Shown: positions 26,562 through 46,309 of the stretch, in pieces
Layout: each line of letters opens with the position of its first letter
Numbering within the stretch: the first letter of the stretch is position 1
Virus record (IMG/VR): IMGVR_UViG_3300045988_072631
Reading direction: 5' to 3' (one strand)
From: a virus
DNA: 64,000 nt
Made by a program: the position numbers and the translations under genes
The notes under the pieces: model-generated
The model's input: the letters and a program-made list of their open reading frames with translations, nothing else
Told to the model about the DNA's origin: nothing
Databases searched by the model: none

Positions 26562-27209
26562 ATGTTAGTTGAGATCACAAAAATCCAGAAAGAAGAAGTT
26601 GCGACCGTAACTAGCCTTGATGTAGCGGAAACGTTCGGAAAGGAACACCGTAGGGTTTTACAGGATATACGTGAGCTGAAATGCAGTGAAGATTTTCGAT
26701 TGCACAATTTCGTGCAGTCGAAATATGTGAATGAACAGGGTCATAATCAATCAATGTTTATTATGACCAGAGACGGCTTTACGTTATTGGCAATGGGGTA
26801 TACCGGTGAAAAGGCTATGCAGTTCAAAGAAGCATATATTCGCCAGTTTAACGCAATGGAAAAAGCTCTTATCGGAAAAATCAGAGAAAGAGAAAAAGGC
26901 ATTGCAGTCCGGCAGGCTCTTACCAATACTTTGAAACAATCAGAAGAAAATGATCGGATGCATGGTCATGCCTACTCCACATATACAAATGTAATTTACA
27001 AAGCTGTATTTGGTAAAAATGCAAAACAGCTCCGGGAAGAGTATGGAGTAGACGATAAAGCAAATTTGAGAGACTTTTTTAGCGAAGAGGATTTAAGAAT
27101 AGTCCAGTCAAAAGAAATGCTTGTCAGCGGACTCATCGGGTGTGGTTGGGGATATGACCAAATTAAGAAATTCTTAAATGAAAACAATGCCTTGTTACAG
27201 GCCGTATAA
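26562..27209 (+). CDS. Rha-family phage regulatory protein
   Basis: TSLDVAETFGKEHRRVLQDIREL...MTRDGFTLLAMGYTGEKAMQFKEAYIRQFNAME. Confidence 0.8.
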   Translation: MLVEITKIQKEEVATVTSLDVAETFGKEHRRVLQDIRELKCSEDFRLHNFVQSKYVNEQGHNQSMFIMTRDGFTLLAMGYTGEKAMQFKEAYIRQFNAMEKALIGKIREREKGIAVRQALTNTLKQSEENDRMHGHAYSTYTNVIYKAVFGKNAKQLREEYGVDDKANLRDFFSEEDLRIVQSKEMLVSGLIGCGWGYDQIKKFLNENNALLQAV

Positions 27210-27219
27210 AACACATGCA

Positions 27220-27264
27220 AGCAGTCAGTGGTTTATGGAGGTTCGATTCCTCCGGCTGCTTTTT
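27220..27264 (+). ncRNA. tRNA-like acceptor/T-arm minihelix A followed by TTTT
   Basis: AGCAGTC-AGTGGTTTAT-GGAGG-TTCGATT-CCTCC-GGCTGCT-TTTT; covaries with copy B at 63800-63840. Confidence 0.5.
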
Positions 27265-27379
27265 CAGTGGGATAGGGTAGCTACCGAAAGGCGAGACGAC
27301 AGTCGCTTTCCCACTGATTCAACTATTATTGTCGCAAGTGCATGCAGGAGCACACATATCTGATGTCGGAGGTATAAGA

Positions 27380-28384: not shown

Positions 28385-28393
28385 GAATCATAC

Positions 28394-28424
28394 CGGGTGC
28401 CGACGACGTAGGCATCCGCTAACC
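28394..28424 (+). promoter_or_regulatory. hairpin-CCGCTAACC-A-run element, copy 3 (upstream of distal tail genes)
   Basis: CGGGTGCC-GACGACGTA-GGCATCCG hairpin overlapping CCGCTAACC then AGAAAAA. Confidence 0.45.
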
Positions 28425-28482
28425 AGAAAAAGATACTGGCAGACTGCCGGAGGGTACTTCTGCCGAGAACGGAGGTGCCTGA

Positions 28483-28896
28483 ATGGCAGAAAAAAAAATA
28501 AAAATTGGTTCTGGCATGTCCTCTTTCCTAAACGTGAACGGGGTAGACTTCCCGTGCCCTAGGGTGGGATTTTCGTATATTATCAGCACAACGGTAAATG
28601 CCGGGCGAAATGCGAACAATGCAGTCATTGGCCAGAGAGTAGGAAGAGACATTTTTAAGCTGAACAATATGGAATGGGCAATGCTGGATGCAGCTAAGTG
28701 GCAGAGCATGTTGGATGCAATTAAACCATATTTTGTACCTGTAACATTTGAGGACTACAGAACAGGGAGACCAATCACCATTACAATGTACCCGGGGGAC
28801 AGAACGGGGGTTCCACTCTATTCAGACCCGGATTCTCATATTGTTACAAAGTATGAAAACTGCAAATTCAATCTGATTGATGCCGGTTGGGAGTGA
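28483..28896 (+). CDS. distal-tail-region protein
   Basis: Position ahead of the large tail protein. Confidence 0.5.
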   Translation: MAEKKIKIGSGMSSFLNVNGVDFPCPRVGFSYIISTTVNAGRNANNAVIGQRVGRDIFKLNNMEWAMLDAAKWQSMLDAIKPYFVPVTFEDYRTGRPITITMYPGDRTGVPLYSDPDSHIVTKYENCKFNLIDAGWE

Positions 28897-28902
28897 TAGA
28901 TC

Positions 28903-31206
28903 ATGCAAAATGTAAGTGCAGCATATAAAAAGGCCATGAGGCAGCCGATGCGGAACCGTGGCTACATAACTGCCAGAATCGGAATTATCAGTTCAACGGC
29001 ACAGGATAACGTAGTTGCAAAAGAATCTGATAATGATTTTGCGTACTTCGTAAACAACACAGAGGTATTCAAGGATAACACAGTAAGCCGGGTGTACGCC
29101 ACCATGGAGCAGAATTTCGCAAAGGTTGACGGAACCATGTACTTTCTGCCGGAGGAATATGAAGGGTACGACTATTACAACAATGGTTTGGTGACGAGTG
29201 AGTTGCTAAGTCCCATGTACATTTCCTTTGACGGAAACATTGCGGATATCAAGGGACTTACAATTGATTTTGGGGAATGCTACCCTACTTCATTTACGGT
29301 TCAGTCTGATAATGGTACGAAAACCTATGAAAATGCCGGGAAAATATTTGTTACTGAGGATACATTTGATGCGGTAACATTCCTGCGGATAACACCGGTA
29401 ACCATGGTTAATGGACAGGGAAGGATGCGAATTTTTCAATTTACCTGCGGAATTTCCAACACTTTTTCAAATAAGCAGGTGAAATCATTCACCTATAAAG
29501 ACTATGTATCGTCCGTATGTGAATCTCTTCCGAGTCAGGATATGACCCTGACAGTGGACAATCAGGATTTGTATTACAACCCGGATAACCCGGAATCAGC
29601 CGTTGCCTACATGGAGCAGGGGCAGGAGATGAAGGTGTCATTCGGATATGATCTGGATGGTGAAGGAACAATTGAATGGGTGCCGGAAATCACCACATTC
29701 CTTAAATCGTGGTCAGCGACCGATACAGAAGCCAAATTTACCATGGTTGATGTATTTGACTGGAAACTGAATGGAACGTATTACAAGGGTCTGTACCGCA
29801 CGGAGGGCATATCTTTGTATGATCTGGCACTGGATGTTTTGACAGATGCCGGCATGAAGCCAGAAGAATATGTGATCGACCCGTATTTGCATGATGTCAA
29901 GGTATGCAATCCTATGCCTGCGGTAAAACATTCGGAAGCCCTGCAGATCATATCGAATGCCGGACGCTGTGTTTTAAGCGTCGATAGAAAAGGAAGGGTA
30001 CTAATCAGATCATCTTTTATCCCGGATATGACTTCCAGTGCCGGAATAGATTTGCTGTATCCAAGTAATTTCCTGTATCCGGGAGAAGATGTACTACCGA
30101 TAGGGGACAACGGAACGGCAGCGCAAACAGGATTCAGCCATGCAGAAAATGTTCTGAAATCCGGAGAGCGGACAGCATATGCAATGTTCAGTAACGATTT
30201 TTCCGTGGTAGATGGAACGGTGATGTTTCTTCCGGAGTCAGAAGCGGATTATGTTGATACGACTGGATATGTCAGTGACAGCATAGCAGATGAAAACGGG
30301 GAGTTTGAGGACATACCAAAAATTATCATCGAATTGGAGTCTGGATATATTTGTTACGGTTTTGCTATTCAATTCCGGAATGTGGCACCTAAAGAATACC
30401 ACGTAGTAACCTACTATCAGAAAGAACAGGTGCAGGATGTAACGGTCGAAAATCCTGGATTATACAGCCAGTACACAGAACAGCTTGACCGGTTCGACGT
30501 CATGGAGATTGTGTTCAAGAAAGGTTACCCAAATGCCAGAGTGGCGGTTGACTCGGTATTGTTCGGAAATGCAACAGATTACACGCTGTCAAGAGATTAC
30601 AATTTGAAGGGTTCACCGACTGCAACAAGACAAGAAAGAGTCAAAACGATTGCAGTTAAGCGAAGCCTTTACAGAAATTCTACATTGGCAATTAAAGAAT
30701 TATCGTCAGAAGAACTCACACTGGCCGGAACAGAGATCACGAAAACGATTCATTTTAGCAAAGCGTCATACGGTCTTACAGTGTCAGTAGAAGAAGGGAA
30801 CGCAACGGCAGCGATTACTGTCAGCAGCAACTACTTTGCAGATATTAAGATCACAGGAACAGCCGGTGAAAAAATCAGATATTCTGTCAAGGGATATGAA
30901 TATGTTGTGGATGAACTGTATTACAGAATCAACCACAATGACACGGGTATTGAAAAAGCATGGAGCAATCCACTTATCAGCACAGAAGAGTTGGCAAAAG
31001 ATCAGGAGGAATGGCTTGCATCCTACTATCTGGGTGATGTAGATTATCAAATTTCGTGGAACGGAGATCCGAGAACAGATGCGAATGATCTTTTCTATCT
31101 GGAATTAAAAGAAAGAGACAACACGATGATACGAGCCTACCAGAATGAGCTGAAATATAGCTCCGGATGGTCAGGCACTTTAAAAGCAAGAAAGGTGGTG
31201 CTGTAA
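28903..31206 (+). CDS. large tail/baseplate structural protein
   Basis: 767 aa, position. Confidence 0.55.
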   Translation: MQNVSAAYKKAMRQPMRNRGYITARIGIISSTAQDNVVAKESDNDFAYFVNNTEVFKDNTVSRVYATMEQNFAKVDGTMYFLPEEYEGYDYYNNGLVTSELLSPMYISFDGNIADIKGLTIDFGECYPTSFTVQSDNGTKTYENAGKIFVTEDTFDAVTFLRITPVTMVNGQGRMRIFQFTCGISNTFSNKQVKSFTYKDYVSSVCESLPSQDMTLTVDNQDLYYNPDNPESAVAYMEQGQEMKVSFGYDLDGEGTIEWVPEITTFLKSWSATDTEAKFTMVDVFDWKLNGTYYKGLYRTEGISLYDLALDVLTDAGMKPEEYVIDPYLHDVKVCNPMPAVKHSEALQIISNAGRCVLSVDRKGRVLIRSSFIPDMTSSAGIDLLYPSNFLYPGEDVLPIGDNGTAAQTGFSHAENVLKSGERTAYAMFSNDFSVVDGTVMFLPESEADYVDTTGYVSDSIADENGEFEDIPKIIIELESGYICYGFAIQFRNVAPKEYHVVTYYQKEQVQDVTVENPGLYSQYTEQLDRFDVMEIVFKKGYPNARVAVDSVLFGNATDYTLSRDYNLKGSPTATRQERVKTIAVKRSLYRNSTLAIKELSSEELTLAGTEITKTIHFSKASYGLTVSVEEGNATAAITVSSNYFADIKITGTAGEKIRYSVKGYEYVVDELYYRINHNDTGIEKAWSNPLISTEELAKDQEEWLASYYLGDVDYQISWNGDPRTDANDLFYLELKERDNTMIRAYQNELKYSSGWSGTLKARKVVL

Positions 31207-31207
31207 T

Positions 31208-31615
31208 ATGGCGTGGATTCAGCCTAAAACAAACTGGGCGGTTGGAGACCGGTTTAATATATCGGATTACAACAGGATTAAAGGAAATCTTAATTTTTTA
31301 CACGAACGAGCGGAAGAGCTTTACCCGGATTTCAATATTATCAATATGGGAGCGGATAAAGTGTATGCCGACTATCCATATGCCCGTGAAATCAATAATT
31401 TTGAGAAGAACCTGGAAACAATCAACGATAATGTTTATACGCAAGACCTGGGCGTTACAGCAACTTTCTACAGCAATGGAGCTTTTATCCAGTGGGACGA
31501 ACTGAACCGGATAGAATCAGCTATGCTGAGCATCTATGAAATGTTGAACAGGCAAGAAGCAGGATTGCCAGTGCTATCGTTCAGGCTGGGTGGAATGAAA
31601 GGAGTGAGAGTATAA
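31208..31615 (+). CDS. tail fibre-associated protein
   Basis: N-terminus WAVGDRFNISDYNRIKGNLNFL typical of fibre proteins. Confidence 0.55.
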   Translation: MAWIQPKTNWAVGDRFNISDYNRIKGNLNFLHERAEELYPDFNIINMGADKVYADYPYAREINNFEKNLETINDNVYTQDLGVTATFYSNGAFIQWDELNRIESAMLSIYEMLNRQEAGLPVLSFRLGGMKGVRV

Positions 31616-32071
31616 ATGGCATTAAAGACGGATTACAAAGATGATATCATTGCAACGGGTACGCAGAGAAAGTATACACAGACAACTAATTCTGATGGTA
31701 CAGTGTCGTTCACAGATTCTACAGAGTATCAGCAGACCGGTGACACCTTTGGAGCAAAGGATATTAACGCAACCAACGTTGAAGTGAATAAACTGGAAGG
31801 AGTTAAGTCGGTGACTCTGAAAGCAAACGAATGGACAGGCTCGGCAGCTCCATATCAGCAGATTGTGACGGTTGATGGAATTAGATCGACGGATTCTCCG
31901 GTGCTTGTCAGCTTGCTGGCAGACGGGGCATCTGAGGCAACACAGAAAGCATACAGTAAGGCATTCGGAATTGTATCTTCTGGAACTGGTTCAACTTCTG
32001 ATGGCAGTGTTACATTCAAAGTATACAAAAAGCCAGCCACAGACATTACGGTTGGTTTGAAAGGAGTCTAG
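31616..32071 (+). CDS. tail fibre-region protein
   Basis: TAAATG coupling, position. Confidence 0.5.
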   Translation: MALKTDYKDDIIATGTQRKYTQTTNSDGTVSFTDSTEYQQTGDTFGAKDINATNVEVNKLEGVKSVTLKANEWTGSAAPYQQIVTVDGIRSTDSPVLVSLLADGASEATQKAYSKAFGIVSSGTGSTSDGSVTFKVYKKPATDITVGLKGV

Positions 32072-32074
32072 GTT

Positions 32075-32926
32075 ATGGGAACTATTTTAATGCCGGGCGG
32101 CGGTGGCGGAATTGATCTGGATGTTGTTACTGCTGCGGCTGGAGATGTTTTAAATGGAAAAGTAATTGTTGGTGCAGATGGAGAGCCATTGACAGGAACG
32201 CTTGCTTTAACAGGAAATGCAGGTACGGGAGATGTACTGTCCGGGAAGACGTTCTACAATGCCGATGCAAAAACAAAGCGCACCGGAACAATGACAAATC
32301 AGGGTGCAAAAACAGCGTCTCTTAACTGCGGGGGAAGTTATACGATTCCTGCTGGTTATCACAATGGATCTGGAAAAGTATCAGCAAAAAGTTTGTCTTC
32401 TCAGACCAGAGGAACTGCGTCTGCCGGAAATATTTTAACAGGTAAGACCGCTTGGGTTAATGGAAACATGATAACTGGCGCAATGAGGGATTATTCAAAT
32501 GTTGAGCAAACAGCCACTATAGAAACGTCAGATCAAACAAAATCATGCTACGGAAATGATGGAACTAATATAAAAGTTGTTCCTGCAATTGGTTATTGGG
32601 GTTCATGGACATTCAATAAGTGCATAAGTATTCCATTAAACAGCATTATAAAAATTGCTAGCGGTGATTGGACTGCTGGAACAGCAGGTTGGTGCGGATT
32701 CAAACCAGATATTGTATTTTTCCGAGGAAATGTGTCCGGTTCACAATTTCCAATAGGAATATATTGTAACGTAAATGGAATGTATATTAATGTGGTAGAA
32801 GGACAGTCGCAATCACACTATGGAGACAATATTTATGTAACTGATACTGGATGGGCATATCATAACAGCATGGCATATATTGATGGAAAAGCTATTAAGT
32901 ATGTTTGCTTAAAAATTACACCATAA
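32075..32926 (+). CDS. tail fibre/receptor-binding candidate
   Basis: Repeated GDVL-x-GK-x-F segments, last late gene. Confidence 0.6.
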   Translation: MGTILMPGGGGGIDLDVVTAAAGDVLNGKVIVGADGEPLTGTLALTGNAGTGDVLSGKTFYNADAKTKRTGTMTNQGAKTASLNCGGSYTIPAGYHNGSGKVSAKSLSSQTRGTASAGNILTGKTAWVNGNMITGAMRDYSNVEQTATIETSDQTKSCYGNDGTNIKVVPAIGYWGSWTFNKCISIPLNSIIKIASGDWTAGTAGWCGFKPDIVFFRGNVSGSQFPIGIYCNVNGMYINVVEGQSQSHYGDNIYVTDTGWAYHNSMAYIDGKAIKYVCLKITP

Positions 32927-32933
32927 ATCAGCG

Positions 32934-33692
32934 TTACAACACATACGCCACATAACCAATAACATCATCAACATCACCTTCTGAGCATCGGGATCTGTTA
33001 TCTCTGATGCTCACATATTCAAATTTTCCATTTCCGCAAGGATTTCTGCGGGCAATGAACACATTGTCCCCGTAAATGATGATGATATCCTCGGTAGGAC
33101 GTGGATTGCGGTCATTGGCAATCAGGAGAATATCATATGGAGAATAGTGCGGCATATAGTTGTCAACCGATGTTTTTATACCCATAAAAATTTGCGGCTT
33201 GATATTTTGCGGAATATCAGTGATATCAAGGAATTCAAACTCGCCGGAAATATGTAACGTGCCGTCTGGATGTTCCTCCAGATTCATCACAGGGACAGTT
33301 TTTCTCCCTTGCCGGAAACCGCCCAAAGAAAGATCATATTGCCTGCGGACGAACCAGCGCACAAAATACTGATAGTGTTCAGGCATTTCACGGAACATAG
33401 AAATGCAGTCCATGTCCTCTTCGGAAATAGTGTCAAGTCCGATTAGCTCATCCACTGTAACACCTATAGCCTTAGCTAAGAGGGCGGCAGTGGACAGCTT
33501 GCAATCTTTGGAGTTCTGGTACAACAGATTTTTAAGCGTGTCAAATGAAATACCGGCTGATTCAGCAAGTTCATGAATGGTAATATCTGAATACTTTAAG
33601 CAAATATCCAAATTGTGACGCAAATTATCTGTAAAGACAGTGTTTTCTCTGGTAAAATGTCCAGATAATTTATACAAATTTTCTTTTTTCAT
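32934..33692 (-). CDS. CI/LexA-like repressor (HTH plus S24-like C-terminal domain)
   Basis: N-terminal HTH ITIHELAESAGISFDTLKNLL, divergent from an SOS-box promoter. Confidence 0.7.
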   Translation of the reverse strand: MKKENLYKLSGHFTRENTVFTDNLRHNLDICLKYSDITIHELAESAGISFDTLKNLLYQNSKDCKLSTAALLAKAIGVTVDELIGLDTISEEDMDCISMFREMPEHYQYFVRWFVRRQYDLSLGGFRQGRKTVPVMNLEEHPDGTLHISGEFEFLDITDIPQNIKPQIFMGIKTSVDNYMPHYSPYDILLIANDRNPRPTEDIIIIYGDNVFIARRNPCGNGKFEYVSIRDNRSRCSEGDVDDVIGYVAYVL

Positions 33693-33891: not shown

Positions 33892-33921
33892 TTGACAAAA
33901 TAAGAACATATGTTCTATAAT
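33892..33921 (+). promoter_or_regulatory. promoter (-35 TTGACA, 18-nt spacer, -10 TATAAT) overlapped by a Cheo-type LexA box AGAACATATGTTCT (33903-33916)
   Basis: Read directly; GAAC-N4-GTTC palindrome inside the spacer. Confidence 0.6.
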
Positions 33922-38142: not shown

Positions 38143-38406
38143 ATGAAAGTGGATTTACTGGAGGATGCGTACATATGCATCAGCAAAGACGAGTATATCA
38201 ATTTGGTAGATCAGGAAACTAGAGTGAATGTTCTGGTTGGTTTGATAGCTGCCGGATGCAAGCCGAGCGGAGAGGAAATACTTCGTATCCTTGGAACGGA
38301 ACTGGCAATCGTAACCGCAAACGAATTAAGGGAGAAAAGAAATGGAACTGAAACTTTTACGAATGAAGCTGAAAAACTTCACAAAATATACCGAAAAAGA
38401 GATTGA
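38143..38406 (+). CDS. hypothetical protein
   Basis: GGTGGAGGAA RBS. Confidence 0.45.
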   Translation: MKVDLLEDAYICISKDEYINLVDQETRVNVLVGLIAAGCKPSGEEILRILGTELAIVTANELREKRNGTETFTNEAEKLHKIYRKRD

Positions 38407-40264
38407 TTTCTCTAATATCACTAAAATTTCCGGTATGAACGGAGCTGGAAAGTCCAGCATTGCGACCGCATATACTTGGGTACTGTTTGATTGCGACTAC
38501 AATTTGAAAAGCAGTCCGGCAGTCCGTAGGGAAGTTGACGGGGAACCGGTAATGGATTCTGATGTAGAAGTAACACTGATATTCGATCTGGATGGAAAAG
38601 AAATTTCCATGCGAAAGGTACAGCACCGGACGATCAGCAAGGACGGAGCATCCTACAAAGATGATAATAAATATTTTATCAATGATGTTCCAAAGAAAAA
38701 AGCAGAATTTGAATCGTATCTTGGAATTGATATGGGACTTTTGAAAAGTTGTTCTAATCCAGAGGCTTTTCTTACTAAAAAAGCAGATGAAATGAGAGCA
38801 TATTTGTTTTCACTGTCAGAATCTTTTTCAGATATGCATGTTTGCTGGGAGAACGAAAGCCTTCATGGATTGGCAGAAAAGCTGACAGATTATTCAGTTG
38901 AAGAGTTATCTGCCATGAATAAGAAAAAGAAAACGGATATTGAGAAAGAGCTTCCGGTTCTGGACGGACATATTAAGGAGAAAGAACGAGACATCAAGTT
39001 AAAATCCGACATGGATGTGTCTGATCTGGAATTGCAGAGAAATACATTGAAAGAACAGATTGCAGAGAATCTGAAAAAACAGGCTGATAGTCAGAACATT
39101 TTGAAAGATTATGAATCTGCTACTGCCGGAATTATGGAGCTGAAATTCAAACTGCCAGATATGCAGAATCAGGCGAATAATGTTCTATCAGAAAAAGTCC
39201 GGAAGATCAGAAGTGAAATAGCGGATAAAACAGCCGAAAAGCGGAGATTAGAAATTGAGTCTGACAATTACAGCCGGAAAGTAGAAATATTGACAGATTC
39301 AATTAAGAGATTGACCGAAGATAAGCAGAAAATGGCTGAACTTTGGAAGCAGGAGAAAGCAAGAGTTTTTGACGAAAACAGTACCGTATGCGTGTACTGC
39401 GGGCAGGAATATCCAGAGGACAAGAAAGAACAGCTCCGGTCAGAGTTCGCAGTGCGTAAAGAAGCGGAATTGAAGCGCATCACCGACAAAGGAATGTCTC
39501 TGAAATCTTCTATCGAGGAAAATGAAAAACATATTAAGACTTTGAATACTTTTTTTGAGCATAACGCAGAATGTATTCGGAATATTGAAGAAGAAATTCG
39601 ACTTCTCAGAGAAAAAGAAGCGGAAATTCCGATTGCTGCGGATATTTCTGGTAATGAAGAATATAAGAAAATTCAGAACCAGATTACTGAAAAGGGAAAG
39701 TACCTGGAACAGTTTGGAAACGCTTCTGATTTGAAAGAACAGCTTAAACAGGAAGAATCGGAGTTGAACGAACAACTGAGAGCCTGCGAACAGAAAATTG
39801 CACAGTCGGATACCTCCGCAGAAGAAGAAAGACTGGAAGAACTGAAAGCAAGAAAGCTTGACCTGGGGCAGAAAAAGACGGACGCAGAGCATATACTTGA
39901 CCTTCTGGCAGAACTGGAAAAGAAGAAAAATGAGCTGCTTTCCGATGAAATCAACAGCCATTTTGGACTGGTTAAGTGGAAGTTGTTCGAGAATGCAAAG
40001 AATGGAAATTACAAGTCCGTATGCATTCCACAGGTTGACGAAAAGTCCATTCTGACCACCATCAGCAATAAGGGGAACCGGATTCTCGGAAAACTGGATA
40101 TTTGCCGGAGTATCCAGAAAATCGAGGGAATTTCAGTGCCGATCTGGTTGGATGATTGTGAGTCGTTGGACTCTGAAAACCAGAAGAAGGTTATTGATAT
40201 GGTGGACGGTCAGCTGATTATGCTGATCGTAAATGATGGCAAAGAATTAAAAGTGGAGGGGTAA
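38342..40264 (+). CDS. SMC/Rad50-like AAA ATPase
   Basis: N-terminal KNF...GMNGAGKSS Walker A, long coiled-coil, C-terminal LDDCESLD Walker B. Confidence 0.75.
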   Translation: MELKLLRMKLKNFTKYTEKEIDFSNITKISGMNGAGKSSIATAYTWVLFDCDYNLKSSPAVRREVDGEPVMDSDVEVTLIFDLDGKEISMRKVQHRTISKDGASYKDDNKYFINDVPKKKAEFESYLGIDMGLLKSCSNPEAFLTKKADEMRAYLFSLSESFSDMHVCWENESLHGLAEKLTDYSVEELSAMNKKKKTDIEKELPVLDGHIKEKERDIKLKSDMDVSDLELQRNTLKEQIAENLKKQADSQNILKDYESATAGIMELKFKLPDMQNQANNVLSEKVRKIRSEIADKTAEKRRLEIESDNYSRKVEILTDSIKRLTEDKQKMAELWKQEKARVFDENSTVCVYCGQEYPEDKKEQLRSEFAVRKEAELKRITDKGMSLKSSIEENEKHIKTLNTFFEHNAECIRNIEEEIRLLREKEAEIPIAADISGNEEYKKIQNQITEKGKYLEQFGNASDLKEQLKQEESELNEQLRACEQKIAQSDTSAEEERLEELKARKLDLGQKKTDAEHILDLLAELEKKKNELLSDEINSHFGLVKWKLFENAKNGNYKSVCIPQVDEKSILTTISNKGNRILGKLDICRSIQKIEGISVPIWLDDCESLDSENQKKVIDMVDGQLIMLIVNDGKELKVEG

Positions 40265-40266: not shown

Positions 40267-40866
40267 ATGAGTAAAGCATTGGATATGGCAAGAGAACTGG
40301 TTAAGAAGCTGGAAGAAGAGGAAAAACAGCCAAAAGTGCAGCTTTTAACTTTGAATCCGGGAAATGTATTCAAAATTGGAGAGCATGATTTTATTGTACT
40401 GATGCAGTGCAGAGAGGAAACAGCAGTAATTTCCAAAGGATTCATGGCTGAAAATGTGAAATTTGATGAGGATTCGAGAAACTATAAAGAGTCAAATCTG
40501 AAAAAGGTTATCGAGAATCTGATCCAGCCGGTTATTGAGAAGGAAGTCGGATCAAAAAACCTTATTGAGCATGAGGTTGATCTGACAAGTGTAGATATGC
40601 AGGATGAGTTCGGAGGATTCAAGTGCAAAGTCAGACCAATCACATTCGAAGAAGCCAGACTGTACAACAATTTACTGGTTAATAAAAACCTTAATGATTG
40701 GTGGTGGACATGCACACCTTGGAGCACAGAAGACAGAGGATGGAAATATTCAATTGCCGTTGTTGCTCCGTCCGGCCTTATCAACGACAACTATTTCAGC
40801 AACTGCTACGGTGTTCGCCCGTTTTGTATCTTAAAATCTAATATCTTTGTATCGAAGGGAGAATGA
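40267..40866 (+). CDS. DGR target protein 1 (C-terminal variable region)
   Basis: C-terminus WWWTCTPWS...VVAPSG...GVRPFCIL carries VR1. Confidence 0.8.
   Translation: MSKALDMARELVKKLEEEEKQPKVQLLTLNPGNVFKIGEHDFIVLMQCREETAVISKGFMAENVKFDEDSRNYKESNLKKVIENLIQPVIEKEVGSKNLIEHEVDLTSVDMQDEFGGFKCKVRPITFEEARLYNNLLVNKNLNDWWWTCTPWSTEDRGWKYSIAVVAPSGLINDNYFSNCYGVRPFCILKSNIFVSKGE
40754..40830 (+). repeat. DGR variable region VR1 (77 nt)
   Basis: Aligns to TR without gaps; 13 of 14 mismatches at TR adenines. Confidence 0.85.
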
Positions 40867-41488
40867 AAATGGGATTAACAATGAAAGCATTGCAGGAACA
40901 GATTGATGTGTTAAAAAAAGAAATGGAAGAGCTGAGAAGCGGCCAGAAAGTAGAATGCAACAAGAAATTTTCCAAATTTCTTACTATTGGTGAAACATTT
41001 GAACTGGCAGGAGTTAATTGGAAGATTATTGATATCACGAGTGATGGTTATGTTTGTCTGTCTGATTCTATAGGTGAAATGAAATTCAGCTCTGAAAACA
41101 ATGACTGGAGAACCAGCAATCTTCGAAAATATTTGAATGAAGAATTTTTGAAAAAGATGGAATCAGAAATCGGGACAGGTAATCTGATCAAATTTGAGAG
41201 AAGCCTTCTTTCTTTGGACGGTCAGACGGAGTACGGAACATGTGATGATAAAGTTTCACTTTTGACAGTGGATGAGTACCGGAAATACAGAAAGCTCATT
41301 CCAAATACAGACGATTGGTTCTGGTTGATTTCTCCGTGGAGTACACCTTGCAATGGCTTCAACAACAGTGTTACCGTTGTTGCTCCGTCCGGCAATATGC
41401 CTTCAACTACGGCGGTTACTACGGCCGCTGCGGTGTTCGCCCGTTCTGTATCTTTTCTTCTGCAATCTTTGAATCAGAGGAAAAATAA
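40863..41488 (+). pseudogene. DGR target protein 2, frame broken inside VR2
   Basis: N-terminal frame reads ...VTVVAPSGNM; the conserved ...CGVRPFCIFSSAIFESEEK* end (TAA 41486-41488, TAAATG to avd) is in another frame because of 5 extra nt. Confidence 0.7.
41371..41452 (+). repeat. DGR variable region VR2 (82 nt, TR length plus 5)
   Basis: 15 mismatches to TR, all at TR adenines, plus insertion GCCTT at 41399-41403. Confidence 0.85.
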
Positions 41489-41860
41489 ATGCCAGAAACA
41501 GAACTGAAAGTAATTCTGAAAGCAAAAGATCTGGCAGCGCATACTTTGAGAGTGACATCGAATTGCAACCGGTATCCTAAAAAGTATAGATTTTCATTGG
41601 TGGACAAGATGCAGAATAAAGCACTTGAAATTTATGAATATTTGTACGAAGCCAACCGGACAGATTTGAAAAATTTTAAAAAGGAGCGATCAGAGTTACA
41701 GACAAAAGCAATCACAAATTGCGATGAATTGTTGTTTTATATCGAATTATCAATGAAACTTAATATTATCAGCATGGAAAGCACGGAGTATTGGTCGAAA
41801 ATGGTGTCCGATATAAAACATATGGCGATTGCATGGAGAACCAAAGATAAAGGACGATAA
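41489..41860 (+). CDS. avd: Avd-like accessory variability determinant (four-helix-bundle protein)
   Basis: 123 aa basic helical protein between target genes and TR/RT. Confidence 0.75.
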   Translation: MPETELKVILKAKDLAAHTLRVTSNCNRYPKKYRFSLVDKMQNKALEIYEYLYEANRTDLKNFKKERSELQTKAITNCDELLFYIELSMKLNIISMESTEYWSKMVSDIKHMAIAWRTKDKGR

Positions 41861-41882
41861 AATTATAGGTTATGCGCTGTTT

Positions 41883-41959
41883 AAACCGTTGTTGCTCCAT
41901 CCGGCAATATCAACAACAACAATTACAACAACAGCAACGGTGTTCGCCCATTCTGTATC
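41883..41959 (+). repeat. DGR template repeat (TR), AAC/AAT-rich
   Basis: ...GGCAATATCAACAACAACAATTACAACAACAGCAACGGTGTTCGCCC...; non-coding, 98 nt upstream of RT. Confidence 0.85.
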
Positions 41960-42057
41960 AAACAGGCAGTTAGAGTAGGCAATAAGCCGAAATCAGAGAA
42001 AGATACAAAAAAGTGCATGACCTTCTCGAATAGGGTAAATACAAAGGAATTTTTACA

Positions 42058-43080
42058 ATGGATAAAGATGTTATATGCAGCTATGAAAATCTGTATAAGG
42101 CATACCGGAAGGCTAAAACTGGAAAAGGTTTTAATGGAAGCTGTGCAAAATTTCAGACTATGAATCTGGAAGGACTTCACTTATTGAAAGAACAACTGGA
42201 AAATCAGACATACCGGTTGAATCCGTACAACGAATTTAAGGTTTACGAACCGAAAGAAAGAGTGATTAAATCGTGTTCTTTCAAAGACAAAATCGTCCAA
42301 CATTGCTTATGCGACGAGATTTTGCATCCTGCATTAAGGGATCGCTTTATTAGTACGAATTATGCAGGGCAGCAGGGGAAAGGTACTCATTTTGGAATGG
42401 ATTGCTTGAAAGAGCAAATGATTGATTTTTATGAAGAACATAGACTTGATGGCTGGATTCTTAAATGTGACATTAAAAAGTTTTTCTACCAGATAGACCA
42501 TGAGATCCTGAAAAGAATTGTTGACTATCACTTTCCAGATGAGTACACCAAATGGTTGAATCACCTGTTTATTGAAAGCACAGAAGGTCTGGGGCTTCCA
42601 CTCGGGAATCAGGTAGCTCAGGTATATGCACTTCTGATGCTAGATGGTATGGATCACTTCATTACCGAAACACTTGGAATATCCAGATATGGAAGATACA
42701 TGGATGATTTCTATTTGATCTATCCAGATAAAGAGTATTTGATGTTTTGTCTAAAACAGATCCGAGAATTTCTTGGAAGGCTGGAACTTGAATTGAATGG
42801 AAAGACACAGATTGTCCCATTCAAATGCGGAATAGCATTTACAGGTTTTCATCACTACGTAACATTGGAAGGAAAATACATAAGAAAATTGAGTGGAACA
42901 AACAAACGAAAGATGCGTAAGAAAATCAGGAAATGGTCAGAACTGGTTAGATCCGGGAAAATGACGGAAGAAAAATTTTTTGAGAAGTACAACGCTTGGA
43001 AAAACCATGCATTACATGGGAATTGCATTAAGTTGTGCCACTCGATGGATTTATATGTAAAAGAATTATTGGAGGAATAA
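42058..43080 (+). CDS. DGR-type reverse transcriptase
   Basis: LPLGNQVAQ and YMDDF motifs, 340 aa. Confidence 0.9.
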   Translation: MDKDVICSYENLYKAYRKAKTGKGFNGSCAKFQTMNLEGLHLLKEQLENQTYRLNPYNEFKVYEPKERVIKSCSFKDKIVQHCLCDEILHPALRDRFISTNYAGQQGKGTHFGMDCLKEQMIDFYEEHRLDGWILKCDIKKFFYQIDHEILKRIVDYHFPDEYTKWLNHLFIESTEGLGLPLGNQVAQVYALLMLDGMDHFITETLGISRYGRYMDDFYLIYPDKEYLMFCLKQIREFLGRLELELNGKTQIVPFKCGIAFTGFHHYVTLEGKYIRKLSGTNKRKMRKKIRKWSELVRSGKMTEEKFFEKYNAWKNHALHGNCIKLCHSMDLYVKELLEE

Positions 43081-43833
43081 GTGATTATGGCAGATACACA
43101 GGTAGCAGTAACAGAGGAAAAGAGAGAAGTATCAAGAAATAAAGTGACGGATTACAGTCTTGGAATTTTTGGAACGTCAGATAACTTCATTATGGCTATG
43201 CAGATGGCAAAAGCATTGTCAAGTTCAACGATAGTGCCACAAACGTTCCAGAGAAATGAAGCGAATTGTCTGATTGCCATTGAGCAGGCACAGAGATTGC
43301 ACGTAAGTCCGCTTATGGTAATGCAGAACCTTAATGTAATCCAGGGAAGACCGTCATGGAGTTCCAAGTTTTTGATTGCTGCGATCAATAACAGCGGAAA
43401 TTTTGATACGGAATTACAGTTCGAGGAGAAGAAGGACAAGGACGGAAAGCCATTTTCTTGCACAGCATGGGTAATGAAGAATGGTAGAAAAGTTGAAGGT
43501 ATGACGGTTGACATGGATATGGCGAGAGCAGAGGGATGGCTTGGAAAAAACGGAAGTAAATGGAAAACCATGCCACAGCTGATGCTTCGTTACAGAGCAG
43601 CATCTTTCTTTTCCAGTCTTAATTGCCCGGAACTGACTATGGGTCTGTACACAAAAGAAGAGATTATTGACGGTGATTTCAAAGAATACAAGATCGAAGA
43701 TGTACAGGAGCAGGCTCATGAAGAGATCGTTAAGAATGCAAATTCTATGGATTTTGAACCGGAAGAAACTGCTGGAACAGTGACTGAACCGGACGGGCAG
43801 CAGGCAATGCCGGAGTTCATGCAGGAGGGATAA
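43081..43833 (+). CDS. RecT/Red-beta-like single-strand annealing protein
   Basis: Sequence pattern and synteny with MBL-fold gene and SSB; start GTG 43081 or ATG 43087. Confidence 0.6.
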   Translation: MIMADTQVAVTEEKREVSRNKVTDYSLGIFGTSDNFIMAMQMAKALSSSTIVPQTFQRNEANCLIAIEQAQRLHVSPLMVMQNLNVIQGRPSWSSKFLIAAINNSGNFDTELQFEEKKDKDGKPFSCTAWVMKNGRKVEGMTVDMDMARAEGWLGKNGSKWKTMPQLMLRYRAASFFSSLNCPELTMGLYTKEEIIDGDFKEYKIEDVQEQAHEEIVKNANSMDFEPEETAGTVTEPDGQQAMPEFMQEG

Positions 43834-44203: not shown

Positions 44204-44415
44204 CTCTTAAAGAACGAGTGATCGTAGAAGCCTACACAGGTTACTGTATGACAATAGGCGAGGAAAGAGAAGAACTCTATAAATACATAGCGAATGCTAT
44301 GGGAAGACCGATTTTTTCCCATGAACTTGCAGATGAAGAAATTCTAAGCGAGTTGCACGATAAAGTTAAAACGGATTTTATCAGGCTTTGCAGAGGAGAG
44401 GATGTAGAAGCATGA
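44200..44415 (+). CDS. hypothetical protein
   Basis: ATGA coupling. Confidence 0.45.
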   Translation: MTLKERVIVEAYTGYCMTIGEEREELYKYIANAMGRPIFSHELADEEILSELHDKVKTDFIRLCRGEDVEA

Positions 44416-45134
44416 TTTTAAAAACCGTAGAGAGTGGAAGCTCTGGTAATTGCTATTTGCTCATTGCAAACAGCGGAGAAAAACTAATTCTGGATTGTGG
44501 AGCACTAGCAAAGGAAATTAAGAAAGGGCTGAACTGGGAAATCAGAAATGTTTCCGGGTGCGTTGTAACACATCAGCATGGGGATCATGCGTGCTCAGCC
44601 AAGTATCTTTCTAATATCGGAATACCAGTATTTGCTCCTTGCTTAGGAGATGCTTCTGCAAACTTCAAGGGAGAATGGATTATCAAAGTCTTTGAATTGA
44701 CAACGGTGGATGGCAAATGGACTCATACAAACGGTGATGGTTCTGAATGCCCGTGTTACGGTTTTTGGATTCATCACCCAGAGATGGGGACAATGATTTA
44801 TGCAACTGACACAGAACTGATTAAGTGGAGGTTCAAAAATGTCAATCATATTCTTCTGGGAGTCAATTATGACCCGGAATTATTATCCGGTGACGATGCA
44901 AAGAAAAACCATGTTGTCCGGGGACACATGAGCATTGATACGGCTTGCGAATTTGTGAAAGCCAATGTGTCAGATCAGTTGCAGAACGTTATTATGTGCC
45001 ATTTATCAAAAGAAAATGCAGATGCCGGTAAATTCATCGAAAAGATGAAAAAATCCGTTCCAAACGTCAATGTGTGCGTTGTGGAGCCTGGCATGGAATT
45101 AGAATTAAGGAATCCGGGTGAATGCCCGTTTTAG
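44412..45134 (+). CDS. MBL-fold metallo-hydrolase
   Basis: VVTHQHGDH motif. Confidence 0.75.
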   Translation: MILKTVESGSSGNCYLLIANSGEKLILDCGALAKEIKKGLNWEIRNVSGCVVTHQHGDHACSAKYLSNIGIPVFAPCLGDASANFKGEWIIKVFELTTVDGKWTHTNGDGSECPCYGFWIHHPEMGTMIYATDTELIKWRFKNVNHILLGVNYDPELLSGDDAKKNHVVRGHMSIDTACEFVKANVSDQLQNVIMCHLSKENADAGKFIEKMKKSVPNVNVCVVEPGMELELRNPGECPF

Positions 45135-45150
45135 AAAGGTGGAATGACTT

Positions 45151-45588
45151 ATCAATAAAGTAATTTTAACAGGTAGATTCGCGAAAGACCCTGACGTTAG
45201 ATACTCAAACGGAGAAAAGACAACTGCGGTTGCGAGATTTACTCTGGCAGTAGAACGAAGATTCAAAGGTGATGGAAATCCGACGGCTGATTTTATCAAC
45301 TGTGTAGCATTCGGAAAATCCGGGGAGTTTATCGAAAAATACTTCCGCAAAGGTATGAAAGCTAATATTTGTGGACGGATTCAGACCGGCTCTTATACGA
45401 ATAAGGACGGAAACAAGATCTACACCACAGATGTTCTGGTGGAAGAAATTGAGTTTGGTGAAAGCAAAAGCAGCAATCAGCAGAGCGCAGCTCCGGCTAA
45501 TCCAAGTAATGCAGTTAATCCAATGACTGATGAAAATGGTTTCATGAACATCCCAGATGGAATTGATGAAGAGTTACCGTTTGCGTGA
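45151..45588 (+). CDS. ssb: single-stranded DNA-binding protein (no canonical start codon for the OB-fold part)
   Basis: INKVILTGRFAKDPDVRYS... OB fold and acidic DEELPF tail; the first in-frame ATG/GTG/TTG is only at 45355. Confidence 0.75.
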   Translation: MNKVILTGRFAKDPDVRYSNGEKTTAVARFTLAVERRFKGDGNPTADFINCVAFGKSGEFIEKYFRKGMKANICGRIQTGSYTNKDGNKIYTTDVLVEEIEFGESKSSNQQSAAPANPSNAVNPMTDENGFMNIPDGIDEELPFA

Positions 45589-45604
45589 TAAAGAGGGTGA
45601 GAAA

Positions 45605-46309
45605 ATGAAAAAATTTGAACTTACAGCAGAATGCGTAACAAATATTTTTGGAAAAAAATTATTCAGAATCAAAGCACTGGTAGCATTTGAAAATGTGAAA
45701 GAAGGAGATCTGGGCGGATTCGTGGAGAAAGAATCTAACCTCGCTAATAGCGGTAAAGCATGGGTTTGCGGTGATGCACAGGTCTACGGTGAAGCACAGG
45801 TCTCTGGTAATGCACAGGTTTGCGGTGATGCACAGGTCTACGGTGAAGCACAGGTCTACGGTAATGCACAGGTTTGCGGTAATGCACGGGTCTGCGGTAA
45901 TGCACGGGTCTACGGTGAAGCATGGGTCTACGATAATGCACGAGTCTACGATAATGCACGGGTCTACGGTGAAGCACAGGTCTACGGTGAAGCACAGGTC
46001 TACGGTGATGCACAGGTCTACGGTGATGCACAGGTCTACGGTAATGCATGGGTTTGCGGTAATGCACGGGTCTCCGGTGATCTGGATTATGCAATTGTTG
46101 GAGGTTTTGGAAGTGAGCAGCGGACAACTACATTTTTCCGGCAGAAGGACGGAACAGTAGGAGTGAGGTGCGGATGCTTTTACGGAACACTGGAAGAATT
46201 CAGGGGAAAAGTTAAGAAAACGCACAAAGACAGCAAATACGGACAGGAATACCTGATGATTGCAGATCTGATGGAATTACATTTTGCAGGAGGAAAAGAG
46301 AATGAATGA
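45605..46309 (+). CDS. hexapeptide-repeat (beta-helix-like) protein
   Basis: 18 tandem G-[DEN]-A-x-V-x units. Confidence 0.65.
   Translation: MKKFELTAECVTNIFGKKLFRIKALVAFENVKEGDLGGFVEKESNLANSGKAWVCGDAQVYGEAQVSGNAQVCGDAQVYGEAQVYGNAQVCGNARVCGNARVYGEAWVYDNARVYDNARVYGEAQVYGEAQVYGDAQVYGDAQVYGNAWVCGNARVSGDLDYAIVGGFGSEQRTTTFFRQKDGTVGVRCGCFYGTLEEFRGKVKKTHKDSKYGQEYLMIADLMELHFAGGKENE
45752..46075 (+). repeat. 18 tandem copies of an 18-bp coding repeat
   Basis: GGTGAAGCACAGGTCTAC-type units read directly. Confidence 0.9.

What the first reader, a model, noticed from the sequence alone, without database searches (positions are those of the whole stretch)
40267..43080. Complete diversity-generating retroelement with two target genes embedded in the recombination module
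The 77-nt, AAC/AAT-rich TR at 41883-41959 matches the 3' ends of two tandem genes. VR1 (40754-40830) has 14 mismatches, 13 of them at TR adenines. VR2 (41371-41452) has 15 mismatches, all at TR adenines. An Avd-like four-helix protein and an RT with LGNQVAQ/YMDDF motifs complete the cassette. Unlike the classic phage case, the targets are not in the tail-fibre module. They are about 200-aa proteins with a coiled N-terminus and a WW..PWS...GVRPFCI variable end. They sit between an SMC-like ATPase and a RecT-like gene, so they are presumably expressed early or in the lysogen.
Basis: partly seen in the sequence, partly recalled or inferred. Interest (0 to 1): 0.7.

Follow-up and report, generated by a model that had tools for sequence, protein, structure and literature searches.

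The report
Gut-phage DGR inside the recombination operon
This is a genuine diversity-generating retroelement of a gut phage that rewrites the tips of two small lectin-like proteins encoded among the phage's early recombination genes rather than its tail genes; the element type and its targets are already known, and its unusual position, conserved across many phages, is only partly noted in the literature.

Summary
TR (41885-41959) matches VR1 (40756-40830) and VR2 (41373-41452) with mismatches almost only at TR adenines (P = 3e-6 and 9e-9). In about 116 near-identical homologues the variable residues are exactly those at the TR's AAY codons. The RT resembles Bordetella bRT (E 2.5e-37, YMDD intact). 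An Avd-like gene and a covariation-supported DGR RNA complete the cassette.

One correction: VR2 carries a 5-nt insertion, so target 2 is frameshifted in this genome. Relatives have it in frame.

Both targets are ~200-aa DUF6273 proteins with a C-type-lectin-like fold (pLDDT 97), an N-terminal helix and no signal peptide. The order ATPase, T1, T2, Avd, TR, RT, RecT-type gene is conserved in dozens of IMG/VR phages. Distant T-T-Avd-RT cassettes are also flanked by replication and regulatory genes, never structural ones. FP_Brigit and nd4 have remote small targets in early regions too.

Small DUF6273 targets and distal VRs near counter-defence genes are already published, so I rate this a new member of a known kind. 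What the targets do is unresolved. I lean towards early-made cytoplasmic binders (about 0.45) over virion receptor-binding proteins (about 0.35).

The parts
38342..40264 (+). Upstream flank: 640-aa AAA_23 / SbcC-like ATPase of the recombination module. Its stop codon lies 2 nt before the target 1 ATG.
   Evidence: Pfam AAA_23 2.5e-15. phrog_77 SbcC-like 9.7e-53. Syntenic in nearly all of the IMG/VR relatives examined.
40267..40866 (+). Target 1 (T1): 199 aa, an N-terminal helix followed by a DUF6273 C-type-lectin-like domain. Intact.
   Evidence: phrog_9958 2e-30. DUF6273 1.8e-4, below the Pfam cutoff. AF2 pLDDT 97.3. Foldseek matches to DUF6273 proteins, the Legionella Lcl C-terminal domain and C-type lectins. 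No hydrophobic N-terminus.
40756..40830 (+). VR1, at the 3' end of T1.
   Evidence: 12 mismatches to the TR core, 11 at A. In 116 homologues the high-entropy residues are 171, 173-176, 178, 179 and 181, which are the AAY codons of the TR.
40863..41507 (+). Target 2 (T2) as it stands: a 214-aa ORF (gene callers give 212 aa from 40869), frameshifted inside VR2 and running 19 nt into avd. The intact form in relatives is 204 aa and would end at 41488.
   Evidence: 41% identity to T1. phrog_9958 7e-42.
41373..41452 (+). VR2: 75 nt homologous to the TR plus a 5-nt insertion.
   Evidence: 13 mismatches in the core, all at TR adenines. VR2 differs at A positions in every contig that shares the identical T1.
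41397..41403 (+). Position of the 5-nt insertion (ATGCC, TGCCT or GCCTT; placement ambiguous) that shifts the T2 reading frame.
   Evidence: The same frameshifted protein is on 7 contigs, including an ENA assembly and a Logan assembly. It is absent from all other relatives examined.
41489..41860 (+). Avd-like accessory protein, 123 aa.
   Evidence: phrog_3206 'Avd protein of DGR' 1.3e-22. Pfam bAvd 2.6e-5 and 23S_rRNA_IVP 1.1e-5, both below cutoff. All-helical but low-confidence AF2 model. Co-conserved with the RT.
41867..41878 (+). 5' half of the long-range RNA helix that closes off the TR and the first ~50 nt of the spacer (a 'cPRT Stop'-type duplex).
   Evidence: 12 bp, 9 pairs with compensatory changes in 29 distinct sequences. 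99% of cells paired against 21-47% in slid controls. Same type of element as described by Handa et al..
41885..41959 (+). Template repeat (TR). The copied, mutagenised tract is about 41885-41950. 41952-41956 pairs with spacer 41962-41966.
   Evidence: 23 A in 75 nt, encodes VVAPSGNINNNNYNNSNGVRPFCI. Identical TR in L001, L019 and L022. 22 of 23 A columns are variable among 140 distinct VRs.
41960..42057 (+). Spacer (Sp) RNA region. It contains the TR:Sp hairpin partner (41962-41966), a hairpin at 41978-41988, the 3' half of the closing helix (42012-42023) and an adjacent hairpin (42025-42035) followed by an A-rich run.
42058..43080 (+). DGR reverse transcriptase, 340 aa, intact.
   Evidence: RVT_1 2e-16. 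phrog_1423 9e-104. Best PDB match is Bordetella bRT 8ub7_A, E 2.5e-37, with YMDD aligned.
43081..43833 (+). Downstream flank: RecT-family single-strand annealing protein, starting directly after the RT stop codon.
   Evidence: Pfam RecT 6.8e-6. phrog_561 1.3e-72. RecT genes from three different PHROG families occupy this position in relatives.

Best explanation
What it is: a canonical diversity-generating retroelement of a temperate, Clostridia-type gut phage.

Shown or strongly supported:
- avd-TR-RT is transcribed into a structured DGR RNA. A closing helix pairs the sequence just upstream of the TR with the spacer, and the 3' end of the TR pairs with the start of the spacer.
- The RT/Avd complex copies TR 41885-~41950 into cDNA with random nucleotides opposite adenines. 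That cDNA replaces the homologous 3' ends (VR1, VR2) of two paralogous genes immediately upstream.
- Each target is a ~200-aa soluble protein: a short N-terminal helix and a DUF6273 C-type-lectin-like domain. Eight AAY-encoded and four partly variable residues form the diversified site.
- The whole cassette is a conserved component of the early recombination/replication operon. It lies between an SbcC-like ATPase and a RecT-type annealing protein, not in the tail module.
- In this genome target 2 has been knocked out of frame by a 5-nt insertion in VR2. A further round of homing could in principle overwrite it, because the VR ends are intact.

Inferred:
- The targets are co-transcribed with early genes.
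- My preferred reading (about 0.45) is that they act as cytoplasmic, diversified binding proteins in the infected cell, for example capturing variable host or defence factors.
- The published guess that they are Mtd-like virion receptor-binding proteins remains plausible (about 0.35).
For: A-specific TR/VR mismatches. Pooled over relatives with their own TR: 133 mismatches at A, 9 at C, 3 at T.

Population-level hypervariability sits exactly at TR AAY codons. VR2 has been rewritten in every contig that shares an identical T1. There are 140 distinct VRs among 155 copies.

RT homologous to bRT with the catalytic YMDD. Avd hit in PHROGs.

DGR RNA helices with covariation: 12 of 23 pairs have compensatory changes, and 0 of 500 shuffles reach the observed values. 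They match the elements described for BPP-1 and 207 other DGRs.

Target fold.

No signal peptide or transmembrane segment in the window's targets. Only 3 of 150 family representatives have an N-terminal hydrophobic segment.

Operon packing: the ATPase stop codon is 2 nt before the T1 ATG. T1 and T2 overlap as ATGA. The T2 stop abuts the avd ATG. The RT stop abuts the RecT start. There is no + strand terminator-like site between 36826 and 47879.

Conserved synteny in the IMG/VR relatives. Distant cassettes (RT ~55% identical) are flanked by ParB-like, methyltransferase, repressor, helicase, SSB, replication-initiator and Holliday-junction-resolvase families, with no structural family among the top 25.

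The small homologues in FP_Brigit and nd4 also lie in early regions and carry remote VRs. A stand-alone homologue sits next to a Lar-type anti-restriction gene.
Against: There are no expression, localisation or read-level data for this genome.

Target 2 is frameshifted here. Many relatives have lost avd-TR-RT while keeping the targets. Current activity of this particular copy is therefore unproven.

The RT has AQ where the canonical motif has SQ: LGNQVAQ against bRT's IGSLTSQ.

Avd falls below the Pfam cutoffs and has no detectable PDB relative by sequence or by the low-confidence model.

No hairpin or cruciform stands out downstream of the VRs.

Against the intracellular-binder reading: DUF6273 domains also occur in large receptor-binding-protein-like and tail-like phage proteins. 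In nd4 and FP_Brigit the same TR also serves a virion-type target. Gene position alone does not establish timing or location.
Confidence: 0.85

Rival explanations
1. The two small lectin-fold proteins are virion-associated receptor-binding or adhesion proteins, functional analogues of Mtd. They merely happen to be encoded outside the structural module, and they dock on the tail or capsid through the N-terminal helix.
For: This is the published hypothesis for nd4_tgt2 and nd12_tgt2 and for the second Toutatis target. DUF6273 domains occur in large phage proteins annotated as receptor-binding or tail proteins. The characterised phage DGR target is a C-type-lectin receptor-binding protein. The conserved N-terminal amphipathic helix could be a docking or trimerisation element; there are weak collectin neck-plus-CRD matches.
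Against: The early-region position is conserved across several divergent phage lineages. This holds even where the RT and a virion-type target sit beside the tail genes. Neighbours are replication, recombination, regulatory and anti-restriction genes. No proteomic evidence was found.
Confidence: 0.35
2. The position reflects how homing works rather than what the targets do. Either the adjacent RecT-type annealing protein (with the ATPase and nuclease) anneals the mutagenised cDNA to the VRs during replication. Or placement in the replication module, co-oriented with fork movement, raises homing efficiency.
For: A RecT-family gene lies within two ORFs downstream of the RT in about 34 of 42 informative close relatives. 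These genes come from three different PHROG families (561, 148, 2185), so the adjacency has survived non-orthologous replacement. In E. coli, bRT cDNA integrated only with CspRecT in the DGRec system. Native BPP-1 homing is favoured near the origin and when the cDNA-complementary strand is the lagging-strand template, and the integration step is described as still mysterious. The + strand is G-rich throughout the window.
Against: The adjacency may simply reflect a fixed slot in a mosaic recombination module. Distant T-T-Avd-RT cassettes have no RecT within 8 kb, although 16 of 30 have an SSB. In FP_Brigit and nd4 the RT is far from the annealing protein. BPP-1 homing works in E. coli without a phage annealing protein. 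The replication origin is not located here.
Confidence: 0.2
3. This particular copy is a decaying or currently inactive DGR. The diversity seen is historical, and the frameshift in T2 marks the start of loss.
For: T2 is frameshifted. 11 of the 14 informative closest IMG/VR relatives, and many others, have deleted avd-TR-RT but keep the targets. The identical VR1 allele is seen on 18 contigs from several samples.
Against: RT, Avd, TR and all RNA helices are intact, and the TR is identical to that of relatives with different VRs. VR2 differs among contigs that share the identical VR1, which points to recent rewriting in this very lineage.
Confidence: 0.15
4. The 5-nt insertion in VR2 is an assembly artefact of a mixed VR2 population, not a real allele.
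For: VRs are known to disturb assembly. All other relatives are in frame.
Against: The exact frameshifted protein is encoded on 7 contigs, including a SPAdes-type ENA contig and a Logan contig seen in two runs. A 5-nt insertion is not a typical k-mer path or homopolymer error.
Confidence: 0.2

Closest known systems
Bordetella phage BPP-1 DGR (mtd-avd-TR-brt)
   Same: Same gene order: target, avd, TR, RT. Adenine-specific TR-to-VR transfer, with the VR at the 3' end of a C-type-lectin-fold protein. The RT is homologous to bRT (E 2.5e-37). The RNA has an upstream/spacer closing duplex and a TR:Sp duplex.
   Different: Two tandem small targets instead of one 381-aa tail-fibre-tip protein. The targets lack Mtd's beta-prism and beta-sandwich domains. 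The cassette lies in the early recombination operon, not after the tail genes. The RT motif ends in AQ, not SQ. No obvious hairpin follows the VRs.
Gut phages nd4 and nd12 (tentaclin plus tgt2 DGRs; Baykov et al. 2023, PMC10743442)
   Same: tgt2 is a small DUF6273-only protein with flanking helices and a C-terminal VR. nd4 tgt2 is 25% and nd12 tgt2 32% identical to T1 over the matched stretch. nd4 tgt2 also sits in the replication region.
   Different: In nd4 the RT and a large Ig-domain 'tentaclin' target lie next to the tail and lysis genes, and tgt2 is a remote second target. Here there is no tentaclin, both targets are small, and the RT itself is in the early operon.
Faecalibacterium phage DGRs (FP_Brigit, Toutatis, Lelie, CP11; PMC5883640, PMC11792537, bioRxiv 10.1101/2024.10.15.618418)
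   Same: DUF6273 targets, two VRs per TR, and DGR-less relatives that keep the targets. FP_Brigit AUV56625.1 (31% identical to T1) lies between the lysis-lysogeny switch and the exonuclease/RecT genes.
   Different: Their RT sits with a Hoc-like target near the tail or integrase genes. The early-region small gene of FP_Brigit was not reported as a target. I find that it carries a VR.
Gut prophages with a second, distal VR near counter-defence genes (Nature 2025, PMC12629997)
   Same: DGR targets outside the structural module, next to genes such as DNA methyltransferases.
   Different: There it is a distal second VR of a tail-targeting DGR. DGRs in that study were mostly in Bacteroidota phages; the hosts of the four double-VR prophages are not stated in what I read. 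Here the non-structural targets are the only targets and are adjacent to the RT.
DGRec (synthetic bRT/Avd plus CspRecT recombineering; bioRxiv 10.1101/2025.03.24.644984)
   Same: A DGR RT next to a RecT-family annealing protein.
   Different: DGRec is engineered, needs no IMH, and RecT is shown to be required there. Here the coupling is only an adjacency.

Membership tests
Diversity-generating retroelement (DGR) | Reverse transcriptase of the DGR clade with an intact catalytic site | tested here: met
   340 aa. RVT_1 2e-16. Best PDB relative is Bordetella bRT 8ub7_A, E 2.5e-37 over residues 4-318, with YMDD aligned. One deviation: the motif is LGNQVAQ where bRT has IGSLTSQ.
Diversity-generating retroelement (DGR) | TR/VR repeat pair differing almost only at TR adenines | tested here: met
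   VR1 has 11 of 12 core mismatches at A and VR2 has 13 of 13. P = 2.7e-6 and 9e-9. In relatives: 133 at A, 9 at C, 3 at T.
Diversity-generating retroelement (DGR) | VR at the 3' end of a protein-coding target with a C-type-lectin-type fold | tested here: met
   VR1 encodes residues 164-188 of the 199-aa T1. AF2 pLDDT 97.3. Foldseek matches DUF6273 proteins, Lcl (DUF1566) and C-type lectins. T2 is out of frame in this genome.
Diversity-generating retroelement (DGR) | Accessory variability determinant (Avd) adjacent to the TR | tested here: inconclusive
   phrog_3206 'Avd protein of DGR' 1.3e-22. The Pfam bAvd and 23S_rRNA_IVP hits are below their cutoffs. No PDB sequence hit. The single-sequence AF2 model is helical but only pLDDT 63, so its fold search is meaningless. 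Position and co-conservation with the RT fit Avd.
Diversity-generating retroelement (DGR) | DGR RNA elements: a duplex between the sequence upstream of the TR and the spacer, an adjacent stem-loop followed by adenosines, and TR:Sp pairing at the priming site | tested here: met
   Helix 41867-41878 x 42012-42023 has compensatory changes at 9 of 12 pairs. Hairpin 42025-42035 is followed by an A-rich run. 41952-41956 pairs with 41962-41966. Compared with Handa et al..
Diversity-generating retroelement (DGR) | IMH-type 3' boundary and a hairpin or cruciform downstream of the VR | tested here: inconclusive
   Homology ends abruptly after GTATC in all three copies. The only non-A mismatch (C41953 to T in VR1) lies 3' of the last mutagenised A (41950), as expected for an uncopied boundary segment. 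No significant hairpin follows VR1, and only a weak one follows VR2, with z = -0.4.
Diversity-generating retroelement (DGR) | Ongoing mutagenic homing in this genome | not testable with these tools
   This needs read pile-ups. Lineage-level activity is shown by distinct VR2 alleles on contigs with an identical T1 and by entropy peaks at AAY codons.
DUF6273 (PF19789) / phrog_9958 small phage proteins | Significant match to the family profile | tested here: met
   phrog_9958 at 2e-30 (T1) and 7e-42 (T2). Pfam DUF6273 gives 25.0 bits for T2 (cutoff 23.5) and 21.9 bits for T1, just below. The family has 762 clusters at 50% identity with E <= 1e-3.
Tentaclin-type two-target DGR (Baykov 2023) | A large target with an N-terminal DUF6273 domain followed by Ig-like domains | tested here: not met
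   No further DUF6273 gene or VR anywhere in the 64-kb window.

The most novel reading that the evidence does not exclude
A large clade of gut Clostridia phages uses a DGR not to retarget virions but to diversify small cytoplasmic lectin-fold proteins made with the early recombination and replication genes. This would be a phage-encoded, antibody-like repertoire of intracellular binders, for example against variable host defence or host takeover targets. The neighbouring RecT-type annealing protein might help install the cDNA.
Probability: 0.3. Interest if true: 0.8.

Novelty: new member of a known kind. Interest (0 to 1): 0.45.

Why it matters
Phage DGRs are normally read as host-range devices acting on tail fibres. 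Here the only targets are small, signal-less lectin-fold proteins, and they sit in the early recombination/replication operon in every lineage I could sample.

If these proteins act inside the cell, DGRs would also serve phage counter-defence or host manipulation. That idea has so far only been hinted at.

The conserved RT-RecT adjacency also offers a natural system for testing how DGR cDNA is integrated, a step the literature still calls unresolved.

If instead the proteins turn out to be virion components, the finding is an ordinary member of an already described target class.

Tried and rejected
- Near-identity DNA search of the cassette against INPHARED phages: no match.
- Inverted-repeat and DNA-fold search for cruciforms after VR1, VR2 and the TR: nothing significant after the VRs.
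- Avd against the PDB, by sequence and by profile: no meaningful hit.
The single-sequence model reached only pLDDT 63, and its fold search was uninformative.
- The search for related loci with the broad alignment A1 on viral contigs, and with A2 on genome contigs: both failed for lack of a conserved stretch.
- Host identification through GTDB genomes: only 53-58% identical RTs in Clostridia MAGs, so the host is not pinned down.
- Domain fusions in longer family members: only DUF6273 was detected, so they give no functional hint.
- GC skew to locate a replication origin: uniformly positive and uninformative.
- Rfam: only two tRNAs.
- Ordinary paralogue divergence or gene conversion as the source of the repeats: considered and rejected. 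Differences are confined to TR adenines and the TR is invariant among relatives whose VRs all differ.
Full report
**1. Observation**

VR2 (41371-41452) differs at 15 positions, all TR adenines. It is 82 nt long, however, and this count holds only after a 5-nt insertion is removed (ATGCC, TGCCT or GCCTT at 41397-41403).

That insertion shifts the reading frame of target 2. ORF 40863-41507 reads through VR2 as ...VVAPSGNMPSTTAVTTAAAVFARSVS... and runs into avd. The family's conserved end (...GVRPFCIFSSAIFESEEK*) is in the +2 frame.

Population data place the 5' edge of the copied tract at 41885. In that 75-nt core (23 A), VR1 has 11 of 12 mismatches at A and VR2 has 13 of 13. The hypergeometric P values are 2.7e-6 and 9e-9.

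**2. The element is, or very recently was, active in this lineage**

A protein search with target 1 returned 4,324 hits. The best 120 are 88-100% identical, and nearly all differ from one another.

In the 116 hits of 199 aa, column entropy is low everywhere (mean 0.16 bits over residues 1-160) except at residues 171, 173-176, 178, 179 and 181, each with 11-12 different amino acids. These are exactly the AAT/AAC codons of the TR. Residues 164, 172, 177 and 180, whose TR codons contain a single A, show 3-5 amino acids.

Contigs encoding the identical target 1 protein all have a different VR2. The differences lie only at TR-A positions and all are in frame.

In 85 IMG/VR loci plus these contigs I found 155 VR copies (140 distinct) and 48 TR copies (22 distinct). 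Twenty-two of 23 TR-A columns vary in more than 20% of VRs, against 10 of 52 non-A columns; the latter track TR divergence between sub-clades. Where a locus has its own TR, mismatches total 133 at A, 9 at C and 3 at T.

**3. The frameshift**

The frameshifted 212-aa product is encoded on 7 contigs. These include the window's own contig (ENA ERZ826364, NODE_392, 67,650 bp) and a Logan assembly of ERR3451329. No other relative has it.

I therefore regard it as probably a real allele of this strain (about 0.8) rather than an assembly artefact. Both VR2 ends are intact, so a further homing event could overwrite it. That last point is inference.

**4. Components**

RT: 340 aa. Its best solved relative is Bordetella bRT (8ub7_A, E 2.5e-37, residues 4-318). 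YMDD is aligned. The motif LGNQVAQ corresponds to bRT's IGSLTSQ, so it ends AQ rather than SQ.

Avd: the 123-aa protein hits phrog_3206 'Avd protein of DGR' (1.3e-22). Its Pfam bAvd and 23S_rRNA_IVP hits are sub-threshold. It has no detectable PDB relative by sequence. A single-sequence AF2 model is all-helical but of low confidence. I call Avd membership likely but formally inconclusive.

DGR RNA: I aligned 29 distinct avd-3'/TR/spacer segments.
- A 12-bp helix pairs 41867-41878, just upstream of the TR, with 42012-42023 in the spacer. Nine of its 12 pairs show compensatory changes.
- An adjacent 3-bp hairpin (42025-42035) also covaries and is followed by an A-rich run.
- The 3' end of the TR (41952-41956) pairs with the start of the spacer (41962-41966).
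- Overall 99.2% of cells are paired, against 21-47% when partners are slid. None of 500 shuffles reaches the observed values.

This matches the 'cPRT Stop' duplex, stem-loop and adenosines, and the TR:Sp priming duplex, that Handa et al. describe for BPP-1 and predict in 207 other DGRs.

It also explains the single non-A mismatch of VR1 (C41953 to T). That position lies inside the TR:Sp duplex, 3' of the last mutagenised adenine (41950), and so outside the copied tract. This is inference.

No convincing hairpin follows the VRs.

**5. The targets**

T1 and the repaired T2 are 41% identical paralogues. Both belong to phrog_9958 (unknown function) and, at or near threshold, to Pfam DUF6273.

AF2 with an 88-sequence alignment gives pLDDT 97.3. 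The model has an N-terminal helix (residues 3-19) followed by a compact alpha/beta domain.

Foldseek finds:
- DUF6273 phage proteins, at about 1e-8;
- the DUF6273-containing IgA peptidase of Thomasclavelia ramosa;
- the C-terminal domain of Legionella Lcl;
- more weakly, C-type lectin CRDs with their necks.

The family comprises 762 clusters at 50% identity (E <= 1e-3), mostly ~200-aa single-domain proteins. Only 3 of 150 representatives have an N-terminal hydrophobic segment, and the window's proteins have none. They are not predicted to be secreted or membrane-anchored.

**6. Context**

The window is a phage. Its gene order is:
- large terminase at 5404, portal at 9024, major head protein at 11906;
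- amidase at 17665, a tape-measure-like protein at 18505-23466;
- a Cro/C1-type regulator on the minus strand at 32934-33692;
- a perfect sigma-70 consensus promoter at 33892-33921 (+);
- then Ant, an SLT-domain protein, the ATPase, T1, T2, Avd, TR, RT, RecT, two small ORFs, an MBL-fold hydrolase and SSB;
- then a beta-solenoid protein, a radical SAM protein, a methyltransferase and, at 56358, an integrase.

Gene junctions in the cassette are tight or overlapping. No + strand terminator-like site occurs between 36826 and 47879.

The order ATPase, T1, T2, Avd, RT, then recombination genes, recurs in nearly all of the best 80 of 504 IMG/VR matches, with ATPase identity down to about 45%.

Immediately downstream of the RT there is a RecT-family gene in about 34 of 42 informative loci. 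These genes come from three different PHROG families.

Thirty Clostridia MAGs with RTs only 53-58% identical all have the same T-T-Avd-RT cassette. Their flanking ORFs fall in ParB-like, methyltransferase, repressor, helicase, SSB, replication-initiator, Holliday-junction-resolvase and DnaD-like families. No head, tail or lysis family is among the 25 commonest. SSB lies within 8 kb in 16 of 30, and RecT in none.

Annotated phages show the same pattern:
- The FP_Brigit homologue (AUV56625.1) lies between the HTH switch genes and the exonuclease/RecT genes.
- nd4 tgt2 lies among replication genes, about 10 kb from its RT.
- FP_Brigit's early gene carries a VR matching the Brigit TR, with differences only at adenines. 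The original description named only the Hoc-like target.

Stand-alone homologues neighbour a Lar-type restriction-alleviation gene or an amidoligase.

**7. What is already known**

Small DUF6273-only DGR targets have been described: nd4_tgt2 and nd12_tgt2, the small targets of Lelie and CP11, and the second Toutatis target. They have been modelled as C-type-lectin-like, and receptor binding has been proposed as their function.

DGR-less relatives that retain the targets have been noted.

The tentaclin paper does not use the words 'replication' or 'early' at all.

What the present case adds is a clade in which the whole cassette, with only small targets, is a fixed part of the recombination operon.

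**8. Mechanism and function**

The retrohoming mechanism (shown or strongly inferred) is as set out in section 4.

The role of the targets is inferred only. I weigh three readings:
(a) early-made cytoplasmic diversified binders, about 0.45;
(b) virion-associated receptor-binding or adhesion proteins encoded away from the tail genes, about 0.35;
(c) position dictated by the homing mechanism, either through the adjacent RecT or through proximity to and co-orientation with replication. This is about 0.2 and is compatible with (a) or (b).

Reading (c) draws on two reports. bRT cDNA needed CspRecT to integrate in the E. coli DGRec system. Native homing is favoured near the origin and on the lagging-strand template, with integration 'still mysterious'. 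However, RecT is absent near the distant cassettes.

**9. Verdict**

This is a real, essentially canonical DGR. It is a new member of a described target class. Its position in the early operon is conserved and little discussed in the papers I read. In this genome one of its two targets is broken.

Interest is moderate (0.45). It would rise sharply if the targets prove to be non-virion proteins.

Noticed in passing
L017-L031 and many of L032-L101 (e.g. L017:7218-7334, L023:1958-2020, L028, L042, L045): avd-TR-RT has been lost repeatedly while both targets are kept, with distinct 'frozen' VRs. At least three deletion types occur: a remnant of the RT C-terminus (aa ~297-340), a remnant of the Avd N-terminus (aa 1-21 or 1-31), or nothing left. 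This applies to 11 of the 14 informative closest relatives.
   Followed up: partly
L011:4373-4449 (MG711465.1, FP_Brigit, gene AUV56625.1) versus L014:33412-33484 (TR) and L014:35477-35553 (Hoc-like VR): The small early-region DUF6273 gene of Faecalibacterium phage FP_Brigit carries a VR matching the phage's TR, with differences only at TR adenines. It is a second, remote target. The original description named only the Hoc-like target.
   Followed up: yes
L021:1489-2151, L068, L099:6615-7825, L137:112-1842: The number of tandem small targets varies from one (L021, L068; consistent with deletion by recombination between VRs) to three (L099, L137).
   Followed up: no
L079:7603-7804 and L080:7619-7820 (alignment A5, columns 51-56): TR length polymorphism: one or two extra AAC codons (+3 or +6 nt) in the AAC run of the TR in some relatives.
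   Followed up: no
window 45148-45588: The SSB gene is intact in frame but has no ATG, GTG or TTG start. The OB-fold part begins L-I-N-K-V (CTT ATC ...) right after a stop codon. ORF lists therefore show only its C-terminal 77 aa, from 45355.
   Followed up: partly
window 44388-45134: The MBL-fold hydrolase (phrog_392) downstream of RecT has a weak, sub-threshold similarity to the anti-Pycsar protein Apyc1 (Pfam E 0.006, 16.6 bits against a cutoff of 50). It could be a recombination nuclease or a counter-defence enzyme.
   Followed up: no
window 17665-32926: Unusual late-region order. An amidase+SPOR endolysin (17665-18378) precedes a 1653-aa tape-measure-like protein (18505-23466). This is followed by minus-strand ORFs and an Ant / Rha-like / DnaD-like island (25620-28384). 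Four proteins with no Pfam family come after that (28903-32926).
   Followed up: no
window 45557-46309: A YdcK-type beta-solenoid repeat protein (GNAQVYGEAQVYG... repeats). The repeat also creates long spurious ORFs on both strands.
   Followed up: no
window 1989-2060 and 2332-2403: Two tRNA genes upstream of the terminase region.
   Followed up: no
window 33892-33921 (+) and 35078-35050 (-): A perfect sigma-70 consensus promoter (TTGACA-18-TATAAT) next to the Cro/C1-type regulator gene, and an 11/12 match on the opposite strand about 1.1 kb away. This is probably the lysis-lysogeny switch region that heads the operon containing the DGR.
   Followed up: no
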